Virus record (IMG/VR): IMGVR_UViG_3300025362_000004
Span: 32,001-96,000 of that record
Length of the DNA stretch: 64,000 bases
Source of the DNA: a virus
Strand: one strand, 5' to 3'
The notes under the pieces are model-generated. The model ran no database searches, had not been told where the DNA came from, and saw nothing but the letters and a program-made list of their open reading frames with translations. Of this stretch, positions 14,486 through 56,945 are shown in pieces. Each line of letters opens with the position of its first letter. Position 1 is the first letter of the stretch. The position numbers were made by a program, and so were the translations under genes.

Positions 14486-14567
14486 GGGGTTGTAAGGGTT
14501 CGACAGTATTGTAAACCAACAAACGGAGCAATGCTGGACAGGGGTTCAACTCCCCTCAATTCCACCA
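14486..14567 (+). ncRNA. Mini-tmRNA: tRNA-like domain only, no tag reading frame
   Basis: GGGG..TTCGAC 5' end, 9-bp P2 hairpin, GAC.GGGGTTCAACTCCCC T arm, G3-U70, TCCACCA end. Confidence 0.8.
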
Positions 14568-36815: not shown

Positions 36816-36943
36816 ATGCGAATGACGAAACGGTAAACGTAACCCTATTGAATAGGGCGACTGGTTAATAAGATTAACGACAATACGTATAAAGTTAATT
36901 GAATGCCAGTTATCTGTAGGTTCAAATCCTGCTTCGCATACCA
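36816..36943 (+). tRNA. tRNA-like RNA (TGA anticodon) with ~55-nt variable arm
   Basis: Acceptor ATGCGAA/TTCGCAT, T arm, loop ATTGAAT, giant extra stem. Confidence 0.65.
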
Positions 36944-38061: not shown

Positions 38062-38148
38062 GGAAGATAAATTGCACTGGCGTGTAACCTTGATTTGAAA
38101 CCAAGTGGTTCCGAAAGGGATGGGGATCGATACCTCTATCTTCCGCCA
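38062..38148 (+). tRNA. tRNA-Ser(TGA)
   Basis: Loop TTTGAAA, long variable arm, G73. Confidence 0.85.
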
Positions 38149-38941: not shown

Positions 38942-39028
38942 AGAGAGTAATCCATGATGGTGATTGGGTCCGCCTGCTAAGCGGCACGACGTGAAAGCGT
39001 TACGGTTCAAATCCGTTACTCTCTGCCA
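38942..39028 (+). tRNA. tRNA-Ser(GCT)
   Basis: Loop CTGCTAA, long variable arm. Confidence 0.88.
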
Positions 39029-42399: not shown

Positions 42400-44364
42400 A
42401 TGAAAGAAAAGATTTTAATAAGACGTAATTATTTTTTAGGTAATACAAGTTATGAAGATAGCAATTACCGTAGATATTACGCAGCACAATTACTAAACAA
42501 GTTTGGTATCCTAGTTGATAGACCAAGCATGGTAACACGTAGACACGTGGAATTGACTAGTGAATTGTTTGGAGTTAATATTCCAAAGAGTTTTTATAGT
42601 AATCCACAAGATATGAGATATTTCACTTGTAGTGAATTACTTGTTGAACAAGTAATTTCATATTTTAACATTGAGTTTGTTACAGGCGTAAGTTCTGACG
42701 ATGAAAGTTCTTTTGATAGAATAGAAATCTTTAGAAAAGCCCTACCAAATTATAGAGAAGGCGATGAAGTTGTTTTTAGAAACTTTAGAATCCTTACTGA
42801 TAATGAAGCAAGTCCAATATTAGAAGAAGTTTATAGTAACTTAGCAAGTTATACAAGAAAATGGAATGAAACTGAAAATGAAGAATTTGTTTGGTTATTC
42901 AATAACCATGTCGCGAATGACACAAGAATAAAAAGCAAGGACAATGCTATTGCAATGTTCAACGCTTATCCATGCCGTTTATTTGGTCATTCATTAGACC
43001 AAAAAGATGTTGTAAAATTAAGCGTTGAAATGATTGGTAGAGAAGAAAAACACTTTTCTTATACTCCTGAACAAAAGCAAAAACTTGGCTATGCTTTAGA
43101 ATCTTGCTATAGTGTTCCATTGACAAATAAACAAGCAAAATACTTTAATACTATTTCTAGAAAATTAGGATATAAAAGCAATGAAACAAACGACCGTAGT
43201 CCATATAAAATGGCAACAGAGTATATGAATAAGGGTAGAGTTGTTGATGCTGCAAGAATTTTTGCAAGAAATGGTTCTTTGCTTGAAAGAAACTTAATAT
43301 GGTTACTTTCAAGAGCTGATATGCAAGAAGCACAAGAAATCATGAAGTTCGTTAAAATCAAGAATCCAATTGTTGGTATTCAATTCTTCAATGGCTTAAT
43401 TGCTCAAGGAGAAAACAATGGGAGTAGAACCTTCAAATTCTACAAAAATAGATTGATTAGACAACACATTGAAACAGACGTAGAAGCAAGATACAGAAAA
43501 TCTGTTCTATCTTTAGGTATGAAAAAATACTTAAAGAAAGTAATGAATGAAAAAATTGATGAATATTACAAGAATTTACCAAGTCTTGGAAAAGTATATG
43601 TTGATGATGAATTTGAAAATATTGGTTTACCAATGAATACAAGTGCATCTGGAACAGGAATTGATGTATTACCAGTAGGTAGTAGATTAATGATTACTGA
43701 AGATTACATCAGAACATTCTGTTATTGGAACGGACCAAGAGATATTGATACAAGTGTAATTTTCATACATAGAGATGGTCATCAAGCTACATTCTATTGG
43801 GGAAATTATTACGCAAAACCATTTGGACGTAGCGCACTATATTCTGGCGATGACAGAAGTAAAAACGGTGCAGAATATGGAGACTTTAAAATTAGTGAAC
43901 TTAAAGCATTAGGTTATACACACGCTATTTATACACTAAATGGTTATAGTGATAATCTTGACGTTGGGGAAATTTATTGTGGTTATCAAAATAAAAAAGA
44001 CCTACACACACAAGCTTGGGATGCTAAGAATATTCAAATGAAAATTAAAGTTCATGGAGATAGTAGAAGTTATGCTGGATTCGCTATTGATTTTGAGACA
44101 AGAGAAATCATTGTTTTAAATCAAATGGTAGACAGTAAAAATCGTGTCGTTAATCCCGAAACATTAAAATCATTTGAACCATATTTAAAATCTAATTTCT
44201 TAGATACATTTAATGTTGCTAGAATCGCAAGATTAAGAGGAGAAGTTGTAACAGACCCATCTAAAGCAGATTATGTATTTAGTAGAGATTATTTTGAAAA
44301 TATAAAAGGTCAAAAAGTTATCAGACCATCTGATATCGAAAAGATTGTTAAGTTATTAAATTAA
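42400..44364 (+). CDS. Large alpha-helical protein with C-terminal TerD-like domain (Ro/TROVE-like candidate)
   Basis: RTFCYW..PRDIDTS...YSGD.....GAEYGDF TerD-like motifs; helical N-terminus with RNGSLLERNLIWLLSR. Confidence 0.7.
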   Translation: MKEKILIRRNYFLGNTSYEDSNYRRYYAAQLLNKFGILVDRPSMVTRRHVELTSELFGVNIPKSFYSNPQDMRYFTCSELLVEQVISYFNIEFVTGVSSDDESSFDRIEIFRKALPNYREGDEVVFRNFRILTDNEASPILEEVYSNLASYTRKWNETENEEFVWLFNNHVANDTRIKSKDNAIAMFNAYPCRLFGHSLDQKDVVKLSVEMIGREEKHFSYTPEQKQKLGYALESCYSVPLTNKQAKYFNTISRKLGYKSNETNDRSPYKMATEYMNKGRVVDAARIFARNGSLLERNLIWLLSRADMQEAQEIMKFVKIKNPIVGIQFFNGLIAQGENNGSRTFKFYKNRLIRQHIETDVEARYRKSVLSLGMKKYLKKVMNEKIDEYYKNLPSLGKVYVDDEFENIGLPMNTSASGTGIDVLPVGSRLMITEDYIRTFCYWNGPRDIDTSVIFIHRDGHQATFYWGNYYAKPFGRSALYSGDDRSKNGAEYGDFKISELKALGYTHAIYTLNGYSDNLDVGEIYCGYQNKKDLHTQAWDAKNIQMKIKVHGDSRSYAGFAIDFETREIIVLNQMVDSKNRVVNPETLKSFEPYLKSNFLDTFNVARIARLRGEVVTDPSKADYVFSRDYFENIKGQKVIRPSDIEKIVKLLN

Positions 44365-45587: not shown

Positions 45588-45979
45588 GGGGCTGTTTATG
45601 GATTCGACAGGGTAAAAACGGATACGATTAGCATAGGTTCGATGGAACTAAAACACACGATAAAACAATCGGAAACTTATTTAACACAGTTATTTCTTGG
45701 GTAAAGGGTTTATTCTCTCCAAGAGTAGCACTTTCAGTCTAAGAAGAGACAGAACGAATTTATAACTATTACCTATAAGTTATAATTTCGCCAGAATATA
45801 GGATACGACTACTGACTAATACAAAGTGGTAAGAGATAAATTGTATTGAACGATTCGTAATAAAGTTTGTATGTAGTAAAAAGCGAAAAGTTCTAAAACC
45901 CTCTAAAAACATACTAACTATGTAGAATATGGTATCACGAATATCGTGGACAGGGGTTCAAATCCCCTCAGCTCCACCA
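45588..45979 (+). ncRNA. ssrA: tmRNA; predicted tag (A)GNLFNTVISWVKGLFSPRVALSV (45671-45742)
   Basis: GGGGCTG..GGATTCGAC 5' end; GAC.GGGGTTCAAATCCCCTCAGCTCCACCA 3' end. Confidence 0.95.
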
Positions 45980-47279: not shown

Positions 47280-47474
47280 ATGTTAGCAATATTTTTAGTA
47301 ATGGCGCCTTTATTGGCATCAGCATTAACAATTTTAGCAATAACAATTGGAGCGGCGATATTGTTTTATATAATGTATCATACATTCCATGGAGATTTAC
47401 CATTTATAATGAAAACCGTAATAGTAATTTTACTAATAATTGGTTTTACATTATTAGGAATAGCAATTTTATAG
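47280..47474 (+). CDS. Small two-helix membrane protein
   Basis: AGGAG RBS; hydrophobic. Confidence 0.75.
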   Translation: MLAIFLVMAPLLASALTILAITIGAAILFYIMYHTFHGDLPFIMKTVIVILLIIGFTLLGIAIL

Positions 47475-47539
47475 GGTTGAGGTTAGAACCGCCGCAGAAA
47501 CTATCCCTTTCAAAAAAAAGTTTTAACAGCGGCACCAAT

Positions 47540-47614
47540 GAAAATATAGTGTAATGGTTAGCACACTGAGTTCCGAACTCAGGAGTAGGGGTTCAATTCC
47601 CCTTAGTTTCACCA
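47540..47614 (+). tRNA. tRNA-Arg(CCG)
   Basis: Loop TTCCGAA. Confidence 0.78.
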
Positions 47615-47616
47615 AT

Positions 47617-47709
47617 GGGACGGTGTATGGGCTACAAGAGGTCACGAGTCAACAATGTAAACTGATTGGCTTAACGTCGGAGCGGGTTCAATTCCCCTTC
47701 GTTCCACCA
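47617..47709 (+). ncRNA. Atypical tRNA-like RNA: Ala-type acceptor, elongated arm with GTA loop
   Basis: GGG/TCC-ACCA with G3-U70; T loop; no canonical D arm. Confidence 0.5.
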
Positions 47710-47714
47710 AATAA

Positions 47715-47924
47715 TATGAAGAGAGCGTACGACATAATTGCGTCAGGGTCTTCTCGAAGGTTCAATTCCTTCCTTCATAACCATATTACGAAGAGCGAGT
47801 GCGACATAATTGCGCCAGAGCTAATTGGAGGTTAAATCCCTCTCTTCGTAACCATGCTGAGGAGAGTGTGCGACATAATTGCGCCAGAGTCTAATTGAGG
47901 GTACGATGCCCTCCCTCATCACCA
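47715..47924 (+). ncRNA. Three tandem D-armless tRNA mimics (47715-47783, 47787-47854, 47856-47924)
   Basis: Each has a 7-bp acceptor stem, invariant CGACATAATTGCG hairpin, T-like arm and ACCA end. Confidence 0.8.
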
Positions 47925-48051
47925 AAAAATCTATAAGCGAGGTATAAAAATGGAAAATCGGAATATAAACCTAGTTTTAAATCAAGAGAGAACCAAGAAC
48001 TAGACATGGAAGTTTACTTCCATGTAAAATAAATGGAAGAGGTGCAATAAA

Positions 48052-48567
48052 ATGAGCAAATTTAAAAAAATACCATTATCAAAACAAACAAAACCATACC
48101 ACTCACGGACATATGGTCAATTAATTGAAGAAGATATGTTTTTCATCCTTGGCGAAAGACTAAAAATGTCTAATAATCCTTGTATATTGTTTATAGGAAC
48201 AGATAGTCAAACATTCTCACAAACAAAGGTTATTAGTGTTATTGCTGTCCATGAAATTGGACACGGCGGTTTCTGGTTCCATACAGTAGACTGGACAGAT
48301 GCATATAGAAAAGCTAGAATTGCAGAAAAAATTGCTGAAGAAACAGTTCGTTCAATCGAATTAGCTAAGAAAGTTATTAAGTTTGTTGAAGATAATAAAT
48401 TAGACGTAAGTATTAAAATCCATGCAGATGTTGGGCGTGGTAAACATAGTAAAACAAAAGAAATGATTAACTGGGTAGTTGCAATGATTGAAGCCGAAGG
48501 ATTTGAAGCGGAAATCAAACCAAACTCTTGGGCTGCATCAAGTATCGCAGATAGAATTTCAAAATAA
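48052..48567 (+). CDS. RNase H-like YkuK (DUF458) family protein
   Basis: IGTDSQ, E...SI..A, IHADVG and AASSIADR motifs. Confidence 0.88.
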   Translation: MSKFKKIPLSKQTKPYHSRTYGQLIEEDMFFILGERLKMSNNPCILFIGTDSQTFSQTKVISVIAVHEIGHGGFWFHTVDWTDAYRKARIAEKIAEETVRSIELAKKVIKFVEDNKLDVSIKIHADVGRGKHSKTKEMINWVVAMIEAEGFEAEIKPNSWAASSIADRISK

Positions 48568-48801: not shown

Positions 48802-49284
48802 ATGAAACGAAAAGTAATATTTTTAGATGTAGACGGAGTATTGAATAGCGAAAAATTTTTTATAGCAAGAAAACCAGGCTTAAATAAAGATAGCAATTAT
48901 CCTTATAGCCACTTAGATAATGATGCAGTTGGAAGATTTGCATATTTTGTTGCAGAACTTAAAAATAATTTTGAAGTTAAAATAGTTATTTCTTCGTCTT
49001 GGAGAGTAATGAATTATGATGAAATCAGACAAGTTCTTGCTAAAAACTTTATTGCGAGATATGATGAATTTACAAGAACAGAGTATAGTGATGGAGATAG
49101 AGGACAAGAAATTTTAAACTATTGTGCTTTTTATGGTATTGATGTATCTGAAATAATTGTTATTGATGATGATGATTTCGATATTAAAGATTATATCCCC
49201 GCAGAGAACTTCATTCATACCTCTTGGAAAAACGGATTAACCTACAAATTAGTTTCAGATTTCCTAAATAAATTAGCAGTGTAG
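48802..49284 (+). CDS. HAD phosphatase, RNA-repair-associated type
   Basis: FLDVDGVLN, IVISSSWR, RGQEI and IDDD motifs. Confidence 0.88.
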   Translation: MKRKVIFLDVDGVLNSEKFFIARKPGLNKDSNYPYSHLDNDAVGRFAYFVAELKNNFEVKIVISSSWRVMNYDEIRQVLAKNFIARYDEFTRTEYSDGDRGQEILNYCAFYGIDVSEIIVIDDDDFDIKDYIPAENFIHTSWKNGLTYKLVSDFLNKLAV

Positions 49285-49384
49285 ATTTGATTTTCTTTAT
49301 GGTTTATGATATAATTATATTATAACTAAGTGAGATATATAATATTATTTAGTTATCGGTCTTTGAAAAACAAATGAGAAATTA

Positions 49385-50266
49385 TCACTCATTTCATATG
49401 AAATTAATGGTGGCCTCAAAGCTGTTCGCGGCTTAAAGGTGGGTATCAACACGAACTCCAAAGGTTCGTTCGTAGTCCAAAAGACAAGGGGATATCGCTG
49501 TTATCATTAGTTGTTGTAAATTAATACCATCGGTGGTCATTTAGTAAAGTGAGAGTAGCGTCTCAAACTATACTATGGGAAAATGATTTTACTGCTGTTG
49601 ACGGGGAGAAATGCCTCTATAACACGGGTGGTAGTTGAACGTAGAAACCAGTAGAATTTTTAAATAATTAAGCAAATGCTAAATTTGTAGGTAATCAATC
49701 CTACCTATTACACGCCTTGTGCAATATAGAGACCTTGCTAGTCAATATATGTAATAGTCGCATAATGAATAAGTTGTATATGTATTGGACTTCCTAATCA
49801 GAAGACCCTAACGTAAGTTAGTACACTAAAACCCTAACTCTTGCTTGGAGTAAGTGGCGTATAAATGAGGTTGAAATACCTTTCGAGCCTGTTGAGGCAA
49901 ATTTATACGGCGAAACATATATAATTTAATTAGTGCATCGAGAAGCGACTCAGTATCTGGGGCCCGCGACCCTCCCAGGGCGTGGATGAGACCCAAGCGT
50001 AGATATGAAAACCGTTGAAACGGGTAAAACCGTGTATAATGAGTCAAGCCAATTCGAGTAAAAGCATAAAAACGGAAAAAAATACAGATACTTTCTTAAA
50101 GTGAAAGTTGACTTGTTTAAGACAGGTAAAATAGATTAAAGCCTACGTACTTGTGAGTAATCAATCTCACTATCCTTCGGGATATGTAATGAACCAACAC
50201 AGTTAATGAATAAACTTATTGGTAAGATAATAAATCCAATCCGTTAATTTTATATGAAATGAGTGA
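49385..50266 (+). ncRNA. Large structured ncRNA, domain 1 (~880 nt)
   Basis: 26-bp closing helix 49385-49410/50241-50266 with two G-U pairs; no ORF; promoter at ~49287. Confidence 0.75.
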
Positions 50267-50278
50267 ATAACACGAGGC

Positions 50279-51170
50279 AGTTTAGTGTCTCTAAAGGGAA
50301 AAGGTGGGTAACCATCTGGAAGGTATTTGACAAATATCGCTATGTAATATAGCCCGTCTAAACAAAAGTAGTCAAGTGAGAGTATTAAAAATGTAGCTCA
50401 CTCTTCAAGATAGTAACGAATTGTTGGAGAATAGATACTGTTATTATGTTAAAAGGAGTCAACGGCAAGTGCTTAGATTCTGTGGTTATCTCGTGGTGGG
50501 ATAATCGGCATATCCAAAAATAATAGAATTGAAAGAAAACTACAAGGGTAATAAGTATGAGGTTAGCAACTAAATGCAGTTACCCATTAAGTAAAGTAAA
50601 AATGGAGCTTTATTTAAAGTGAAAGTACCGCGAGGAAATCACAACGGAGATATTGAATATTTTGTGTCCCAAAAGGAAACGAAGTTCAGGTTGAAGTATA
50701 TCTTCTGTCAAAACAAACAATACATATGGGGGTTCGAGTCCCTCCCTAGCCTCCAATAAAAATTATATGGCTGGGTAGCTTAATGGGTAAAGCAGTTGTC
50801 TAAGAAACAATACATTTGTATAAGCGAAATCTTCAAAGATTTAAGATGAAAATGCCTTAATTCCACAGAGTAATACTTAATGTGGAGCAGTAAAACTCGC
50901 AAGGTAATACTGTTTGATAAGGAAATGCACGGCGTCTCTAGCGAGACTTAGTGAGTCGCAAGCTCACACGGTAATGGAATTGTCGATTAATCTTAAATGA
51001 CAGGGTGCTAAGCATCATCCTTCCAGAGATGGTAAAACAAAGCAGGCATGCTTCTAAACAGACCCGAGTCTGTGGATAAGTTAATTAACACGTGCAGATA
51101 AGCATCGCGTGGTACGATTAACTAAAGTAGGAGTATTAAAGATATAATCTCAGTCTTTAAAAACTAAACT
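50279..51170 (+). ncRNA. Large structured ncRNA, domain 2 (~890 nt, GOLLD-like candidate) with embedded permuted tRNA
   Basis: AGTTTAGT/ACTAAACT closing helix; terminator 51171-51195; no ORF. Confidence 0.7.
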
Positions 51171-54927: not shown

Positions 54928-55113
54928 TATAGATTGTGCGACTTTTGAATAAAAAGTCGCATTTTTTATTATTGACTTTTTTCCAATTTTGTGATATAAT
55001 AAATTATAAAGATGTAAAGGTAAAGTTATTGGGAAATAACTACACAAAATTAAGAGCCTAGAACAGGTAGTCTGATTGCCACTTTAAATCAAAAAACTTA
55101 AAGGTGGTTTAAA

Positions 55114-55587
55114 ATGAAAAATTTAAAAAGAAAACTTATTGCGACATTCACAGTAATGATGTTTGCCTTACTGGCAACAATTGGAACAACTTATGCTTAC
55201 TGGAATTACTTTGTACATACAGAGTCTAGTATTACAGTAGAAGTTGGAGTAGCCGACAGAATAGTCGTAGCAATTAACACAACAGGTGCAGGTGCTTTAG
55301 TCCCAGCAGGACAATCTACAGGTGCTGAAGTTGAATCTATTGTATTGACTTATGATGTTTCAGTTACACAAGGTGCAGTTGACAGTGGTATTACAACATT
55401 ATCTGTAACAACAGCAAATGAATCAACAGCATTAGTTAACATCTCTGTTAGCGCGCCAACAACTTTAACAGTGGCTAATCAAACAGTTACGGTTACAGTT
55501 ACATTAGATTCCCCAGCAGACCAAGCGGCTTATGATGCTTTAATTGCAGCTGGGATTACATTCGACTTAGTTTTTACTATAGCGTAA
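55114..55587 (+). CDS. Secreted protein with SipW-type (TasA-like) signal peptide
   Basis: Basic N-terminus, hydrophobic helix, GTTYAYW. Confidence 0.75.
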   Translation: MKNLKRKLIATFTVMMFALLATIGTTYAYWNYFVHTESSITVEVGVADRIVVAINTTGAGALVPAGQSTGAEVESIVLTYDVSVTQGAVDSGITTLSVTTANESTALVNISVSAPTTLTVANQTVTVTVTLDSPADQAAYDALIAAGITFDLVFTIA

Positions 55588-56867: not shown

Positions 56868-56945
56868 GGGAGTATAGTGTCAACTGGACAGCACGTCGGC
56901 CTTCAAACCCGTACAGCCCCAGTTCAATTCTGGGTACTCCTGCCA
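56868..56945 (+). tRNA. tRNA-Trp(TCA), UGA-decoding
   Basis: Acceptor GGGAGTA/TACTCCT, G73, loop CTTCAAA (anticodon 56903-56905), short variable loop. Confidence 0.85.

What the first reader, a model, noticed from the sequence alone, without database searches (positions are those of the whole stretch)
47715..47924. Three tandem D-armless tRNA mimics with an invariant CAUAA loop
Seen: three ~68-nt units. The acceptor stems differ in sequence yet stay paired (TATGAAG/CTTCATA, TACGAAG/CTTCGTA, GCTGAGG/CCTCATC), all keep CGACATAATTGCG and CAGRG, and all have a T-like arm and ACCA. Covariation plus the invariant loop argues for function. Inference: an undescribed small RNA family, possibly decoys for CAU-anticodon nucleases (VapC-type), MetRS or TilS.
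Basis: partly seen in the sequence, partly recalled or inferred. Interest (0 to 1): 0.8.

Follow-up and report, generated by a model that had tools for sequence, protein, structure and literature searches.

The report
Three tRNA-shaped mimic RNAs in phage
A 124-kb salt-lake phage carries, at the end of one run of its tRNA genes, three tandem 68-69-base genes for tRNA-shaped RNAs that have no D arm or usable anticodon loop but share an invariant hairpin. They look like working non-decoding RNAs, but I found no relative elsewhere and their role is unknown.

Summary
Three units (47715-47783, 47787-47854, 47856-47924, + strand) each have a 7-bp acceptor stem, a T arm, A73-CCA and no D hairpin. Across the three copies 98% of pair cells are paired and 6 pairs changed on both sides. 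The middle 22 columns are nearly invariant: 3 of 22 vary, against 22 of 43 elsewhere (p=0.003). ARAGORN and Rfam call nothing there.

The "CAUAA loop" is only one of three possible registers. Covariation and RNAalifold favour a long irregular hairpin in which CA of CAU is paired. That weakens the CAU-anticodon decoy idea.

The units follow the phage's own tRNA conventions. All 40 of 40 tRNAs encode CCA, and 15 of 39 spacers are 5 nt or less. An RNase H-like gene and a HAD "RNA-repair" gene lie just downstream.

I found no homologue in viral, metagenome or genome collections or in 13 whole phage records. No RNA data exist. The scan had not found this RNA on other DNA, though it has noted other odd phage tRNA-likes.

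Best reading: processed, non-decoding tRNA-derived RNAs that present a conserved binding hairpin. Interest is moderate.

The parts
47715..47783 (+). Unit 1: 69-nt tRNA-shaped RNA gene (acceptor 47715-47721 with 47773-47779; A73-CCA 47780-47783)
   Evidence: Sequence; alignment A2; model R1 93.2 bits; pair counts
47787..47854 (+). Unit 2: 68-nt tRNA-shaped RNA gene. It is one base shorter in the CAGRG segment, and C10 pairs with that G.
   Evidence: R1 89.7 bits
47856..47924 (+). Unit 3: 69-nt tRNA-shaped RNA gene, with one C.U mismatch at acceptor pair 2:71
   Evidence: R1 94.8 bits
47722..47751 (+). Unit 1 middle arm (cols 8-37). It has a 3-bp basal helix, an irregular segment with conserved G11, G13 and CAGRG, a 3-bp stem 15-17/27-29, and the invariant ACAUAAUUG. 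The equivalent arms are 47794-47822 in u2 and 47863-47892 in u3.
   Evidence: Invariant columns; covariation at 15-29 and 12-33; competing register
47756..47772 (+). Unit 1 T arm (cols 42-58). The G53-C61 and T54/A58 equivalents are invariant in all three units. Loop positions equivalent to 55, 56, 57 and 60 vary.
   Evidence: Invariant G46, T47, A51, T52, C54; two double changes in the T stem
47540..47614 (+). Context: canonical tRNA-Arg(CCG) that opens this tightly packed run
   Evidence: ARAGORN; Rfam tRNA 64.8 bits
47617..47709 (+). Context: 93-nt uncalled tRNA-like element ending in ACCA, lying between tRNA-Arg and unit 1
48052..48567 (+). Context: RNase H-like (YkuK/DUF458) gene, 128 nt downstream of unit 3
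   Evidence: PF04308 E=6.1e-34. Homologues in other phages lie within 1 kb of a tRNA or tmRNA in 21 of 51 loci.
48802..49284 (+). Context: HAD-domain gene of the 'Swiss Army Knife RNA repair' type
   Evidence: PF18143 HAD_SAK_2 E=3e-20

Best explanation
The three units are genes for small, stable, non-decoding RNAs derived from tRNA.

The acceptor stem, T arm and A73-CCA form a generic tRNA "chassis". This lets the RNAs be cut out of the tRNA-array transcript by the host tRNA-processing enzymes (RNase P at the 5' end, trimming back to the encoded CCA) and makes them stable. In place of the D and anticodon arms, the chassis carries one long irregular hairpin whose sequence is held constant. That hairpin is the working part. 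Most likely it is a binding site for a protein or RNA that normally handles tRNA, and the three copies supply dosage.

Shown: the structure, the compensatory changes, the invariant core, and the array-style packing.

Inferred: transcription, processing, stability and trans action.

The partner is unknown. A decoy or sponge for a host tRNA-directed factor is one option. A substrate or cofactor of the adjacent RNase H-like and HAD genes is another.
For: 1. tRNA chassis under structural selection. 98.1% of 53 pair cells are paired and 6 pairs changed on both sides (1 of 500 shuffles; slid controls 0-1). RNAalifold finds 7 such pairs independently.
2. Core under stronger constraint than the chassis. 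3 of 22 columns vary against 22 of 43 (p=0.0034). Two of the three core changes compensate each other (15-29).
3. RNA on the + strand. Fold z-scores are -2.05 to -2.64 on + and -0.08 to -1.25 on -. The G.U pair at 42-58 in u2 would be A.C on the other strand.
4. The units follow this phage's tRNA conventions. 40 of 40 ARAGORN tRNAs end in encoded CCA and 15 of 39 spacers are 5 nt or less. The units end in ACCA with spacers of 5, 3 and 1 nt.
5. Not decoders. There is no RF00005 match at E<=10 and no ARAGORN call in either mode. No register gives a 5-bp Watson-Crick stem with a U33-type 7-nt loop in all three units. The phage already has 4 CAU tRNAs and covers all 20 amino acids.
6. T-loop positions that contact the D loop in real tRNAs (55, 56) vary, while the T54/A58 and G53-C61 equivalents are invariant. 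This fits loss of the D loop.
7. The acceptor sequence is not conserved (1:72, 2:71, 3:70 and 6:67 differ). The shared function therefore lies in the arm, not in an acceptor-read identity.
8. The neighbourhood is RNA-centred: RNaseH_like, HAD_SAK_2, GOLLD, tmRNA.
Against: - No homologue was found outside this genome. All comparative evidence therefore comes from three paralogues.
- Gene conversion of the middle segment could mimic an "invariant core".
- There are no expression data and no mapped RNA ends.
- Contigs from four other samples are letter-identical, so they give no natural variation.
- No promoter or terminator stands out above chance (28 promoter-like sites against 29.9 expected).
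- No binding partner is identified.
- The arm's secondary structure is ambiguous among three registers.
Confidence: 0.55

Rival explanations
1. They are working, decoding tRNAs with a non-cloverleaf layout. The 3-bp helix 8-10/35-37 would be a D stem whose two strands lie on either side of the anticodon arm. The purine-rich CAGRG would stand in for the D loop. CAU would be the anticodon (Met, or Ile after lysidine).
For: - The topology matches what earlier notes of this scan call "rewired" phage Ile/Arg tRNAs. Those notes are unchecked AI notes, and I held none of their sequences.
- The units have CCA, A73 and an intact T54/A58 and G53-C61, and they sit in a tRNA array.
- CAUAA equals positions 34-38 of 3 of the phage's 4 CAU tRNAs.
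Against: - The units are 68-69 nt, against the 76-77 nt reported for that family.
- The only register that puts CAU at positions 34-36 has GA at 32-33 (no U33), a C.U closing pair and mostly wobble pairs.
- The CAUAA-pentaloop register is broken in u1, and covariation favours another register.
- T-loop positions 55 and 56 vary.
- There is no RF00005 match at E<=10.
- The phage already has four CAU tRNAs.
Confidence: 0.12
2. They are decaying duplicates of a tRNA gene (pseudogenes) with no function. The shared core reflects recent duplication or gene conversion.
For: - They are found in one genome only.
- There are no expression data.
- u3 has an acceptor mismatch.
Against: - 22 of 43 chassis columns have diverged, yet 98% of pair cells stay paired and 6 pairs carry double changes (1 of 500 shuffles).
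- Decay would not keep CCA, A73, G53-C61 and T54/A58 in all three units.
- The same sequence persists unchanged in contigs of several samples.
Confidence: 0.1
3. They act in cis. As tRNA-like processing signals, they would make RNase P cut the long tRNA-array transcript and so release or stabilise the downstream RNase H-like/HAD mRNA. The released small RNAs would be by-products.
For: - The units sit directly between the tRNA run and the RNase H-like gene, 128 nt upstream of its start.
- No separate strong promoter for that gene rises above chance.
Against: - One tRNA, which is already present at 47540-47614, would be enough for such a cut.
- This does not explain three copies with an invariant 22-nt arm.
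- In 51 other phage loci with the RNase H-like gene, ordinary tRNAs flank it and no such unit is present.
Confidence: 0.1
4. They are specific decoys for a factor that reads CAU anticodon loops (a VapC-type nuclease, MetRS or TilS).
For: - The invariant stretch contains CAUAA, as do the loops of 3 of the phage's 4 CAU tRNAs.
- Phage tRNAs are known to counter tRNA-cleaving defences (PMC10264068, PMC11464382, PMC11555353; I saw only search listings and abstracts).
- Three copies would suit titration.
Against: - The loop context differs from any canonical CAU tRNA (GA, not CU, before CAU).
- The favoured fold pairs C and A of CAU.
- No PIN, VapC, TilS or MetRS link was found or tested, and the host is unknown.
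Confidence: 0.08

Closest known systems
Canonical bacterial and phage tRNA (Rfam RF00005), e.g. this phage's own 40 tRNAs
   Same: A 7-bp acceptor stem, a 5-bp T stem with a 7-nt loop that keeps the G53-C61 and T54/A58 equivalents, discriminator A, encoded CCA, and head-to-tail packing with 1-5-nt spacers.
   Different: No D hairpin. No 5-bp anticodon stem with a 7-nt loop and U33. Length 68-69 nt. No RF00005 match at E<=10 and no ARAGORN call.
D-armless mitochondrial tRNAs (e.g. animal mt tRNA-Ser(AGY), nematode mt tRNAs); recalled from general knowledge
   Same: The D hairpin is missing, the acceptor and T arms are kept, and the overall length is similar.
   Different: Those tRNAs keep a normal anticodon stem-loop and decode with dedicated factors. 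Here the loop is non-canonical, and ARAGORN's mitochondrial mode does not call the units.
'Rewired' non-cloverleaf phage tRNA-Ile/Arg family noted earlier in this scan (unpublished AI notes)
   Same: A short helix made from strands on either side of the anticodon-side arm, a purine-rich segment 3' of that arm, a location in phage tRNA clusters, and being missed by gene finders.
   Different: Those are described as 76-77 nt with intact anticodon loops and as probable decoders. The units here are 8 nt shorter and lack a usable anticodon loop. I had no sequences of that family, so homology is untested.
Phage tRNAs that counter tRNA-cleaving defences (T5 tRNA against PARIS, PMC11464382; tRNAs against retron effectors, PMC11555353; anticodon-loop variants, PMC10264068)
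   Same: Phage-encoded, tRNA-shaped RNAs in tRNA clusters whose value may lie in conflict over host tRNA rather than in codon supply.
   Different: By their abstracts, those are full-length functional tRNAs that replace or resist cleavage. The units here cannot plausibly decode, so they would have to act as decoys or ligands.
tRNA-like Y RNAs (YrlA) with Ro60/Rsr, and the phage Ro60-like partner RNAs noted earlier in this scan
   Same: Small RNAs in phage tRNA clusters that join tRNA-like parts to a conserved protein-binding helix.
   Different: This genome has no TROVE or DUF2828 gene by profile search. The units lack the ACAGCAA handle that those notes describe (sequence). No Rfam family matches.
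Engineered 'tRNA scaffold' RNAs, in which an insert replaces the anticodon arm so that E. coli processes and stabilises it (approach referred to in PMC3753655, abstract seen)
   Same: The design logic is the same: tRNA ends for processing and stability, with a foreign hairpin as cargo.
   Different: Those are artificial and keep the D arm. This one is natural, lacks the D arm and comes in three copies.

Membership tests
Canonical tRNA (RF00005) | Scores above the Rfam tRNA gathering threshold (29 bits) or is called by a tRNA finder | tested here: not met
   No RF00005 match in 47715-47924 even at E<=10. ARAGORN bacterial mode gives no call.
Canonical tRNA (RF00005) | D stem-loop between the acceptor and anticodon arms | tested here: not met
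   Only 30 nt (29 in u2) lie between the acceptor 5' strand and the linker, and they form a single arm.
Canonical tRNA (RF00005) | 5-bp anticodon stem with a 7-nt loop carrying U33 and a purine at 37 | tested here: not met
   Three registers were examined. None gives this in all three units.
Canonical tRNA (RF00005) | 7-bp acceptor stem, T arm with G53-C61 and T54/A58, N73-CCA | tested here: met
   u3 has one C.U mismatch.
D-armless mitochondrial-type tRNA | Detected by a finder that allows missing arms, and has a normal anticodon arm | tested here: not met
   ARAGORN -mt lists 71 candidates in the genome, none at 79715-79924 in genome coordinates.
'Rewired' non-cloverleaf phage tRNA (earlier notes of this scan) | Helix formed by strands on either side of the anticodon-side arm | tested here: met
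   Helix 8-10/35-37 is paired in all letter-bearing cells. In u2, C10 pairs with the neighbouring G.
'Rewired' non-cloverleaf phage tRNA (earlier notes of this scan) | Intact anticodon stem-loop and a length of about 76-77 nt | tested here: not met
   68-69 nt with no canonical loop.
'Rewired' non-cloverleaf phage tRNA (earlier notes of this scan) | Sequence or profile homology to family members | not testable with these tools
   The notes give no sequences, and no member was at hand.
Y RNA / YrlA-type Ro60 partner RNA | A Ro60 (TROVE) or DUF2828 gene in the genome | tested here: not met
   PF05731 and PF11443 each gave 0 matches at E<=0.1 in the 123,582-bp record.
tmRNA / tRNA-Ala-like domain | G3.U70 in the acceptor stem | tested here: not met
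   Pair 3:70 is U-A, C-G and U-A in the three units.
Any Rfam 15 family | A covariance-model match | tested here: not met
   Gathering-threshold scan of the window. E<=10 scan of 47450-48050 found only a chance - strand mir-46 overlap at 18.9 bits.

The most novel reading that the evidence does not exclude
The units are natural "tRNA-scaffolded" decoys. The phage would use the host's own tRNA-processing machinery to mass-produce three copies of an invariant hairpin. That hairpin would titrate or redirect a host factor that acts on tRNA or on the ribosomal decoding site, for example a tRNA-cleaving defence nuclease. Because this phage appears to read TGA as sense in its structural genes, the target could instead be a factor whose activity must be blunted for that switch. 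This would be a new anti-defence or translation-takeover principle: a non-decoding tRNA mimic rather than a replacement tRNA.
Probability: 0.15. Interest if true: 0.8.

Novelty: new variant of a known kind. Interest (0 to 1): 0.5.

Why it matters
Phage tRNA clusters are increasingly seen as weapons in conflicts over host tRNA, not just as codon supplements. A tRNA-shaped RNA that cannot decode, yet is kept in three copies with an invariant arm, would extend that picture. The current picture is of replacement tRNAs; this would add mimic RNAs that ride the tRNA-processing pathway. It would also be a natural counterpart of the engineered tRNA scaffold. The finding shows once more that gene finders and Rfam miss structured RNAs inside tRNA arrays. 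Its weight is limited because it is so far an orphan: one phage lineage, no expression data and no partner.

Tried and rejected
Homologue hunts that found nothing real:
- Exact-core pattern in viral contigs: 0 hits.
- Exact-core pattern in metagenome contigs: 6 hits, all inside GC-rich coding-like DNA with no T arm or CCA.
- Exact-core pattern in genome contigs: 5 hits of the same kind.
- Loop fixed, stems free, in viral contigs: 28 hits, none tRNA-like. One (L011) matches the whole 22-nt core but has no T arm or CCA after it.
- Stems fixed, loop free, in viral contigs: 22 hits, none tRNA-like.
- blastn and tblastn against GenBank phages: no DNA match, and only one 26.5% protein match.
- Model R1 on 51 loci around RNase H-like homologues: 26 matches at E<=1, best 26.7 bits. 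The five printed alignments are tRNA-length acceptor/T-arm matches; of nine shorter matches inspected, the one I checked against ARAGORN lies inside a tRNA-Ser.
- R1 on 13 loci around homologues of the 654-aa protein: 38 matches, best 27.5 bits.
- R1 on 13 whole virus records: best 28.9 bits. The units themselves score 89.7-94.8 bits.
- A stricter script for short CCA-ended tRNA-likes in the 51 loci found 2 candidates. Both were known tRNAs, so 0 were new.
- Close-relative protein scans of viral contigs and genome contigs found none.

Sequencing runs: 12 runs were listed and no RNA holder was listed. The four runs I laid gave only contigs identical to the window where they cover the units, so there was no variation to test covariation. 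Parts without cover mean nothing.

Readings considered and dropped:
- Coding repeat. The unit starts are 72 and 69 nt apart, so they are in frame, but that frame hits TAA in u2 and TGA in u3. The changes are compensatory for RNA pairs.
- Antisense target of the loop. The 9-mer complement with up to 1 mismatch gave 31 matches against 39.1 expected.
- Ro60 partner. No TROVE or DUF2828 gene is present. The 654-aa tRNA-cluster protein looks TerD-like rather than Ro60-like.
- DNA-level repeat (iteron or att site). This was rejected on strand asymmetry of folding and on the G.U pair.
- Tertiary pairing between CAGRG and T-loop positions 55/56, and between the linker and the apical loop. I checked these by eye and saw no consistent covariation.

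Literature: I could not find T4's small stable RNAs of the tRNA cluster in the library (one search gave 0 papers, paper not held). I therefore mention them from recall only, in the full report. Supplements were not consulted.

Full report
WHAT IS THERE. The window is bases 32001-96000 of a 123,582-bp virus record with 32% G+C. Salt-lake metagenome runs hold it. ARAGORN finds 40 tRNAs and a tmRNA.

One tightly packed run ends with these elements:
- tRNA-Arg(CCG), 47540-47614
- an uncalled 93-nt tRNA-like element, 47617-47709
- the three units of the finding: u1 47715-47783, u2 47787-47854, u3 47856-47924

IS IT REAL. The shared motif CGACATAATTGCGYCAGRG occurs 3 times, against 0.03 expected. 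I aligned the units (A2) and wrote an 18-pair structure:
- acceptor stem, cols 1-7 with 59-65
- helix, cols 8-10 with 35-37
- stem, cols 15-17 with 27-29
- T stem, cols 42-46 with 54-58

On this structure 98.1% of 53 cells are standard pairs and 6 pairs changed on both sides. Only 1 of 500 shuffles matched that. Slid controls gave 44-57% paired and 0-1 double changes. RNAalifold, run without my structure, recovers the same helices and counts 7 double changes.

The variable columns are concentrated in the chassis. Only 3 of 22 columns vary in cols 13-34, against 22 of 43 in the rest of cols 1-65 (Fisher p=0.0034).

The + strand folds better than shuffles (z -2.05, -2.64, -2.31). The - strand does not (z -0.72, -1.25, -0.08).

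- u3 has a C.U mismatch at pair 2:71.
- A 3-bp helix encloses the middle arm.
- The CAUAA pentaloop is not the favoured fold.

THE MIDDLE ARM. Three registers are possible.
- Register 1: six pairs (13-18 with 24-29) and a CAUAA loop. This is the minimum-free-energy fold of u2. In u1 it has an A.C mismatch and a weakened G.U pair, and it shows no double change.
- Register 2: pairs 15-29, 16-28 and 17-27. It turns u1's two core substitutions into a G-C to A-U compensation. RNAalifold chooses it and adds 19-26, 20-25, 14-31 and 12-33. Pair 12-33 is C-G, U-A and A.A in the three units. The result is a rod of about ten Watson-Crick pairs, interrupted by conserved G.G mismatches (11/34, 13/32) and bulged A18 and C30, and capped by UAAU.
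- Register 3: places CAU at anticodon positions 34-36 but needs GA at positions 32-33, a C.U closing pair and mostly wobble pairs. I read this directly from the sequence.

With three sequences the register cannot be settled, but none of the three gives a usable anticodon loop. The stacked length of the arm is about that of the D-plus-anticodon stack of a tRNA. This is an inference from the pair count. The RNA could therefore keep an L-like outline.

tRNA FEATURES KEPT AND LOST. Kept in all three units: the G53-C61 and T54/A58 equivalents, A73 and CCA. T-loop positions equivalent to 55 and 56 contact the D loop in real tRNAs, by established tRNA structure. These positions vary here, as expected if there is no D loop. 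Acceptor pairs 1:72, 2:71, 3:70 and 6:67 differ among the units. An acceptor-read aminoacylation identity is therefore not the shared feature.

Rfam's tRNA model gives no match even at E<=10. ARAGORN calls nothing in either bacterial or mitochondrial mode. The phage already has four CAU tRNAs, three of them with the loop CUCAUAA, and it has tRNAs for all 20 amino acids.

ARRAY CONVENTIONS. All 40 of 40 ARAGORN tRNAs in this genome end in encoded CCA, and 15 of 39 spacers are 5 nt or less. The units end in ACCA and have spacers of 5, 3 and 1 nt. A script that searched the whole genome for CCA-ended elements with an acceptor stem and a T arm re-found the three units. It also found a few other uncalled tRNA-likes, but no further copy of this type. 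Model R1 scores the three units at 89.7-94.8 bits and everything else in the genome at 22.9 bits or less.

NEIGHBOURHOOD. The next genes downstream are:
- an RNase H-like YkuK/DUF458 gene, 128 nt downstream (PF04308, E=6.1e-34)
- a HAD_SAK_2 gene, described by Pfam as the "HAD domain in Swiss Army Knife RNA repair proteins" (E=3e-20)
- a 1.36-kb ORF-poor stretch, and then a GOLLD RNA (150.4 bits against a threshold of 150)

YkuK is classed with RNase H1-type endonucleases and has no known function (PMC3985635, passages read). Homologues of the RNase H-like gene in other large phages sit within 1 kb of a tRNA or tmRNA in 21 of 51 loci. GOLLD is known to lie near phage tRNA islands (bioRxiv 10.1101/2024.12.08.627333, passages read). 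The setting is thus an RNA-processing and RNA-conflict neighbourhood. None of this identifies a partner.

HOMOLOGUES. I found none. The searches, described in Tried and rejected, were:
- five pattern scans of three public collections
- BLAST against GenBank phages
- model R1 on 64 loci and 13 whole virus records

All gave only chance hits or ordinary tRNAs. Proteins 70-74% identical to the adjacent RNase H-like protein do exist in other assemblies. Contigs from four further samples that cover the units are letter-identical. All comparative evidence therefore rests on three paralogues, and gene conversion of the core cannot be excluded.

EARLIER NOTES OF THIS SCAN. Look-ups by sequence and by place found this RNA only in this genome. 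Look-ups by words showed that the scan has met other unusual phage tRNA-likes:
- "rewired" 76-77-nt Ile/Arg tRNAs whose D-stem strands flank the anticodon arm
- mini glycine-tRNA pairs
- 45-nt CCA-ended hairpins
- Ro60-like partner RNAs with an ACAGCAA handle

The helix 8-10/35-37 gives the units here the same topology as the "rewired" class. But the units are 8 nt shorter and lack an intact anticodon loop. The Ro60 lead failed here, because the genome has no TROVE or DUF2828 gene. These notes are unchecked leads. I used them to frame a rival reading, not as evidence.

INTERPRETATION. The best reading (0.55) is that these are processed, stable, non-decoding tRNA-derived RNAs. A generic tRNA chassis serves for processing and stability, and it carries an invariant irregular hairpin that is the functional ligand. 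Three copies supply dosage. The structure, the covariation and the constraint on the core are shown. Expression, processing and trans action are inferred.

The rival readings are:
- a non-cloverleaf decoding tRNA (0.12)
- decaying pseudogenes (0.10)
- a cis-acting processing signal for the downstream genes (0.10)

From recall only, with no paper held: phage T4 also encodes two small stable RNAs of unknown function within its tRNA cluster. That would be the oldest precedent for non-tRNA passengers in phage tRNA operons.

VERDICT. The feature is real and unannotated, and I found it in no library or paper searched (Rfam; paper searches). It is a new variant of the known kind "tRNA-like small RNA in a phage tRNA cluster". 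It is an orphan with no expression data and no partner, so interest is moderate (0.5).

Noticed in passing
window 47617-47709 (+): A 93-nt element directly between tRNA-Arg and unit 1. It ends in ACCA and has a G-C, G-C, G.U acceptor start (tRNA-Ala/tmRNA-like), an imperfect T stem and a long middle arm. ARAGORN and Rfam do not call it. Its fold is no better than shuffles (z -0.07).
   Followed up: partly
genome 2670-29439 (- strand; outside or at the left edge of the window) and window 56868-56942: TGA appears to be read as sense in the - strand structural module. Read with TGA as sense, the open frames there merge into long ones (679, 897, 401, 1802 and 472 aa, with 4-8 in-frame TGA each). 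Most large + strand replication genes have 0-1 in-frame TGA. The 1802-aa read-through matches tape-measure phrog_4211 in one stretch, residues 30-1314. A tRNA with anticodon UCA lies at window 56868-56942 (Rfam tRNA 43.5 bits; ARAGORN -mt 'tca').
   Followed up: partly
window 50645-51156 and 49285-50644: GOLLD RNA match at 150.4 bits, exactly at threshold. It is preceded by about 1.36 kb with no + strand ORF of 40 aa or more. That stretch may be the variable 5' part of GOLLD or another RNA.
   Followed up: no
window 14486-14567 (+): An 82-nt CCA-ended element that the Rfam tmRNA model matches end to end at 65.1 bits. It has a perfect acceptor stem and T arm. It could be a mini tmRNA-like tRNA domain with no obvious mRNA part. 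It is additional to the full tmRNA at 45588-45979.
   Followed up: no
window 36816-36943 (+): A 128-nt CCA-ended element with a perfect 7-bp acceptor stem and a T arm. ARAGORN and Rfam do not call it. It may be a tRNA with an insertion or intron.
   Followed up: no
window 38062-38148 and 38942-39028 (+): Two tRNA-Ser candidates (UGA, GCU) that only ARAGORN's mitochondrial mode reports. They would complete the phage's set of 20 amino acids.
   Followed up: no
window 48052-48567; loci L050-L100: Phage homologues of the RNase H-like YkuK/DUF458 gene recur inside tRNA clusters. 21 of 51 IMG/VR loci have a tRNA or tmRNA within 1 kb, and 22 of 51 within 3 kb.
   Followed up: partly
window 42400-44364; loci L106-L118: A 654-aa protein with no Pfam family and a TerD-like C-terminal part. 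It has 390 homologues at E<=0.001. In 9 of 13 IMG/VR loci it lies within 10 kb of tRNA arrays of 6-26 tRNAs. This looks like a second unexplained tRNA-cluster resident.
   Followed up: partly
window 55009-55083 (+): A c-di-GMP-I riboswitch aptamer (49.1 bits), 30 nt upstream of an ORF for a 157-aa protein with an N-terminal hydrophobic segment (55114-55587).
   Followed up: no
L110 and L114, 13671-13742 (+): A 72-nt CCA-ended RNA-like element in another phage's tRNA cluster. It has a T arm and a hairpin with a UUCGAGU loop, and ARAGORN does not call it. It is unrelated in sequence to the units here.
   Followed up: no
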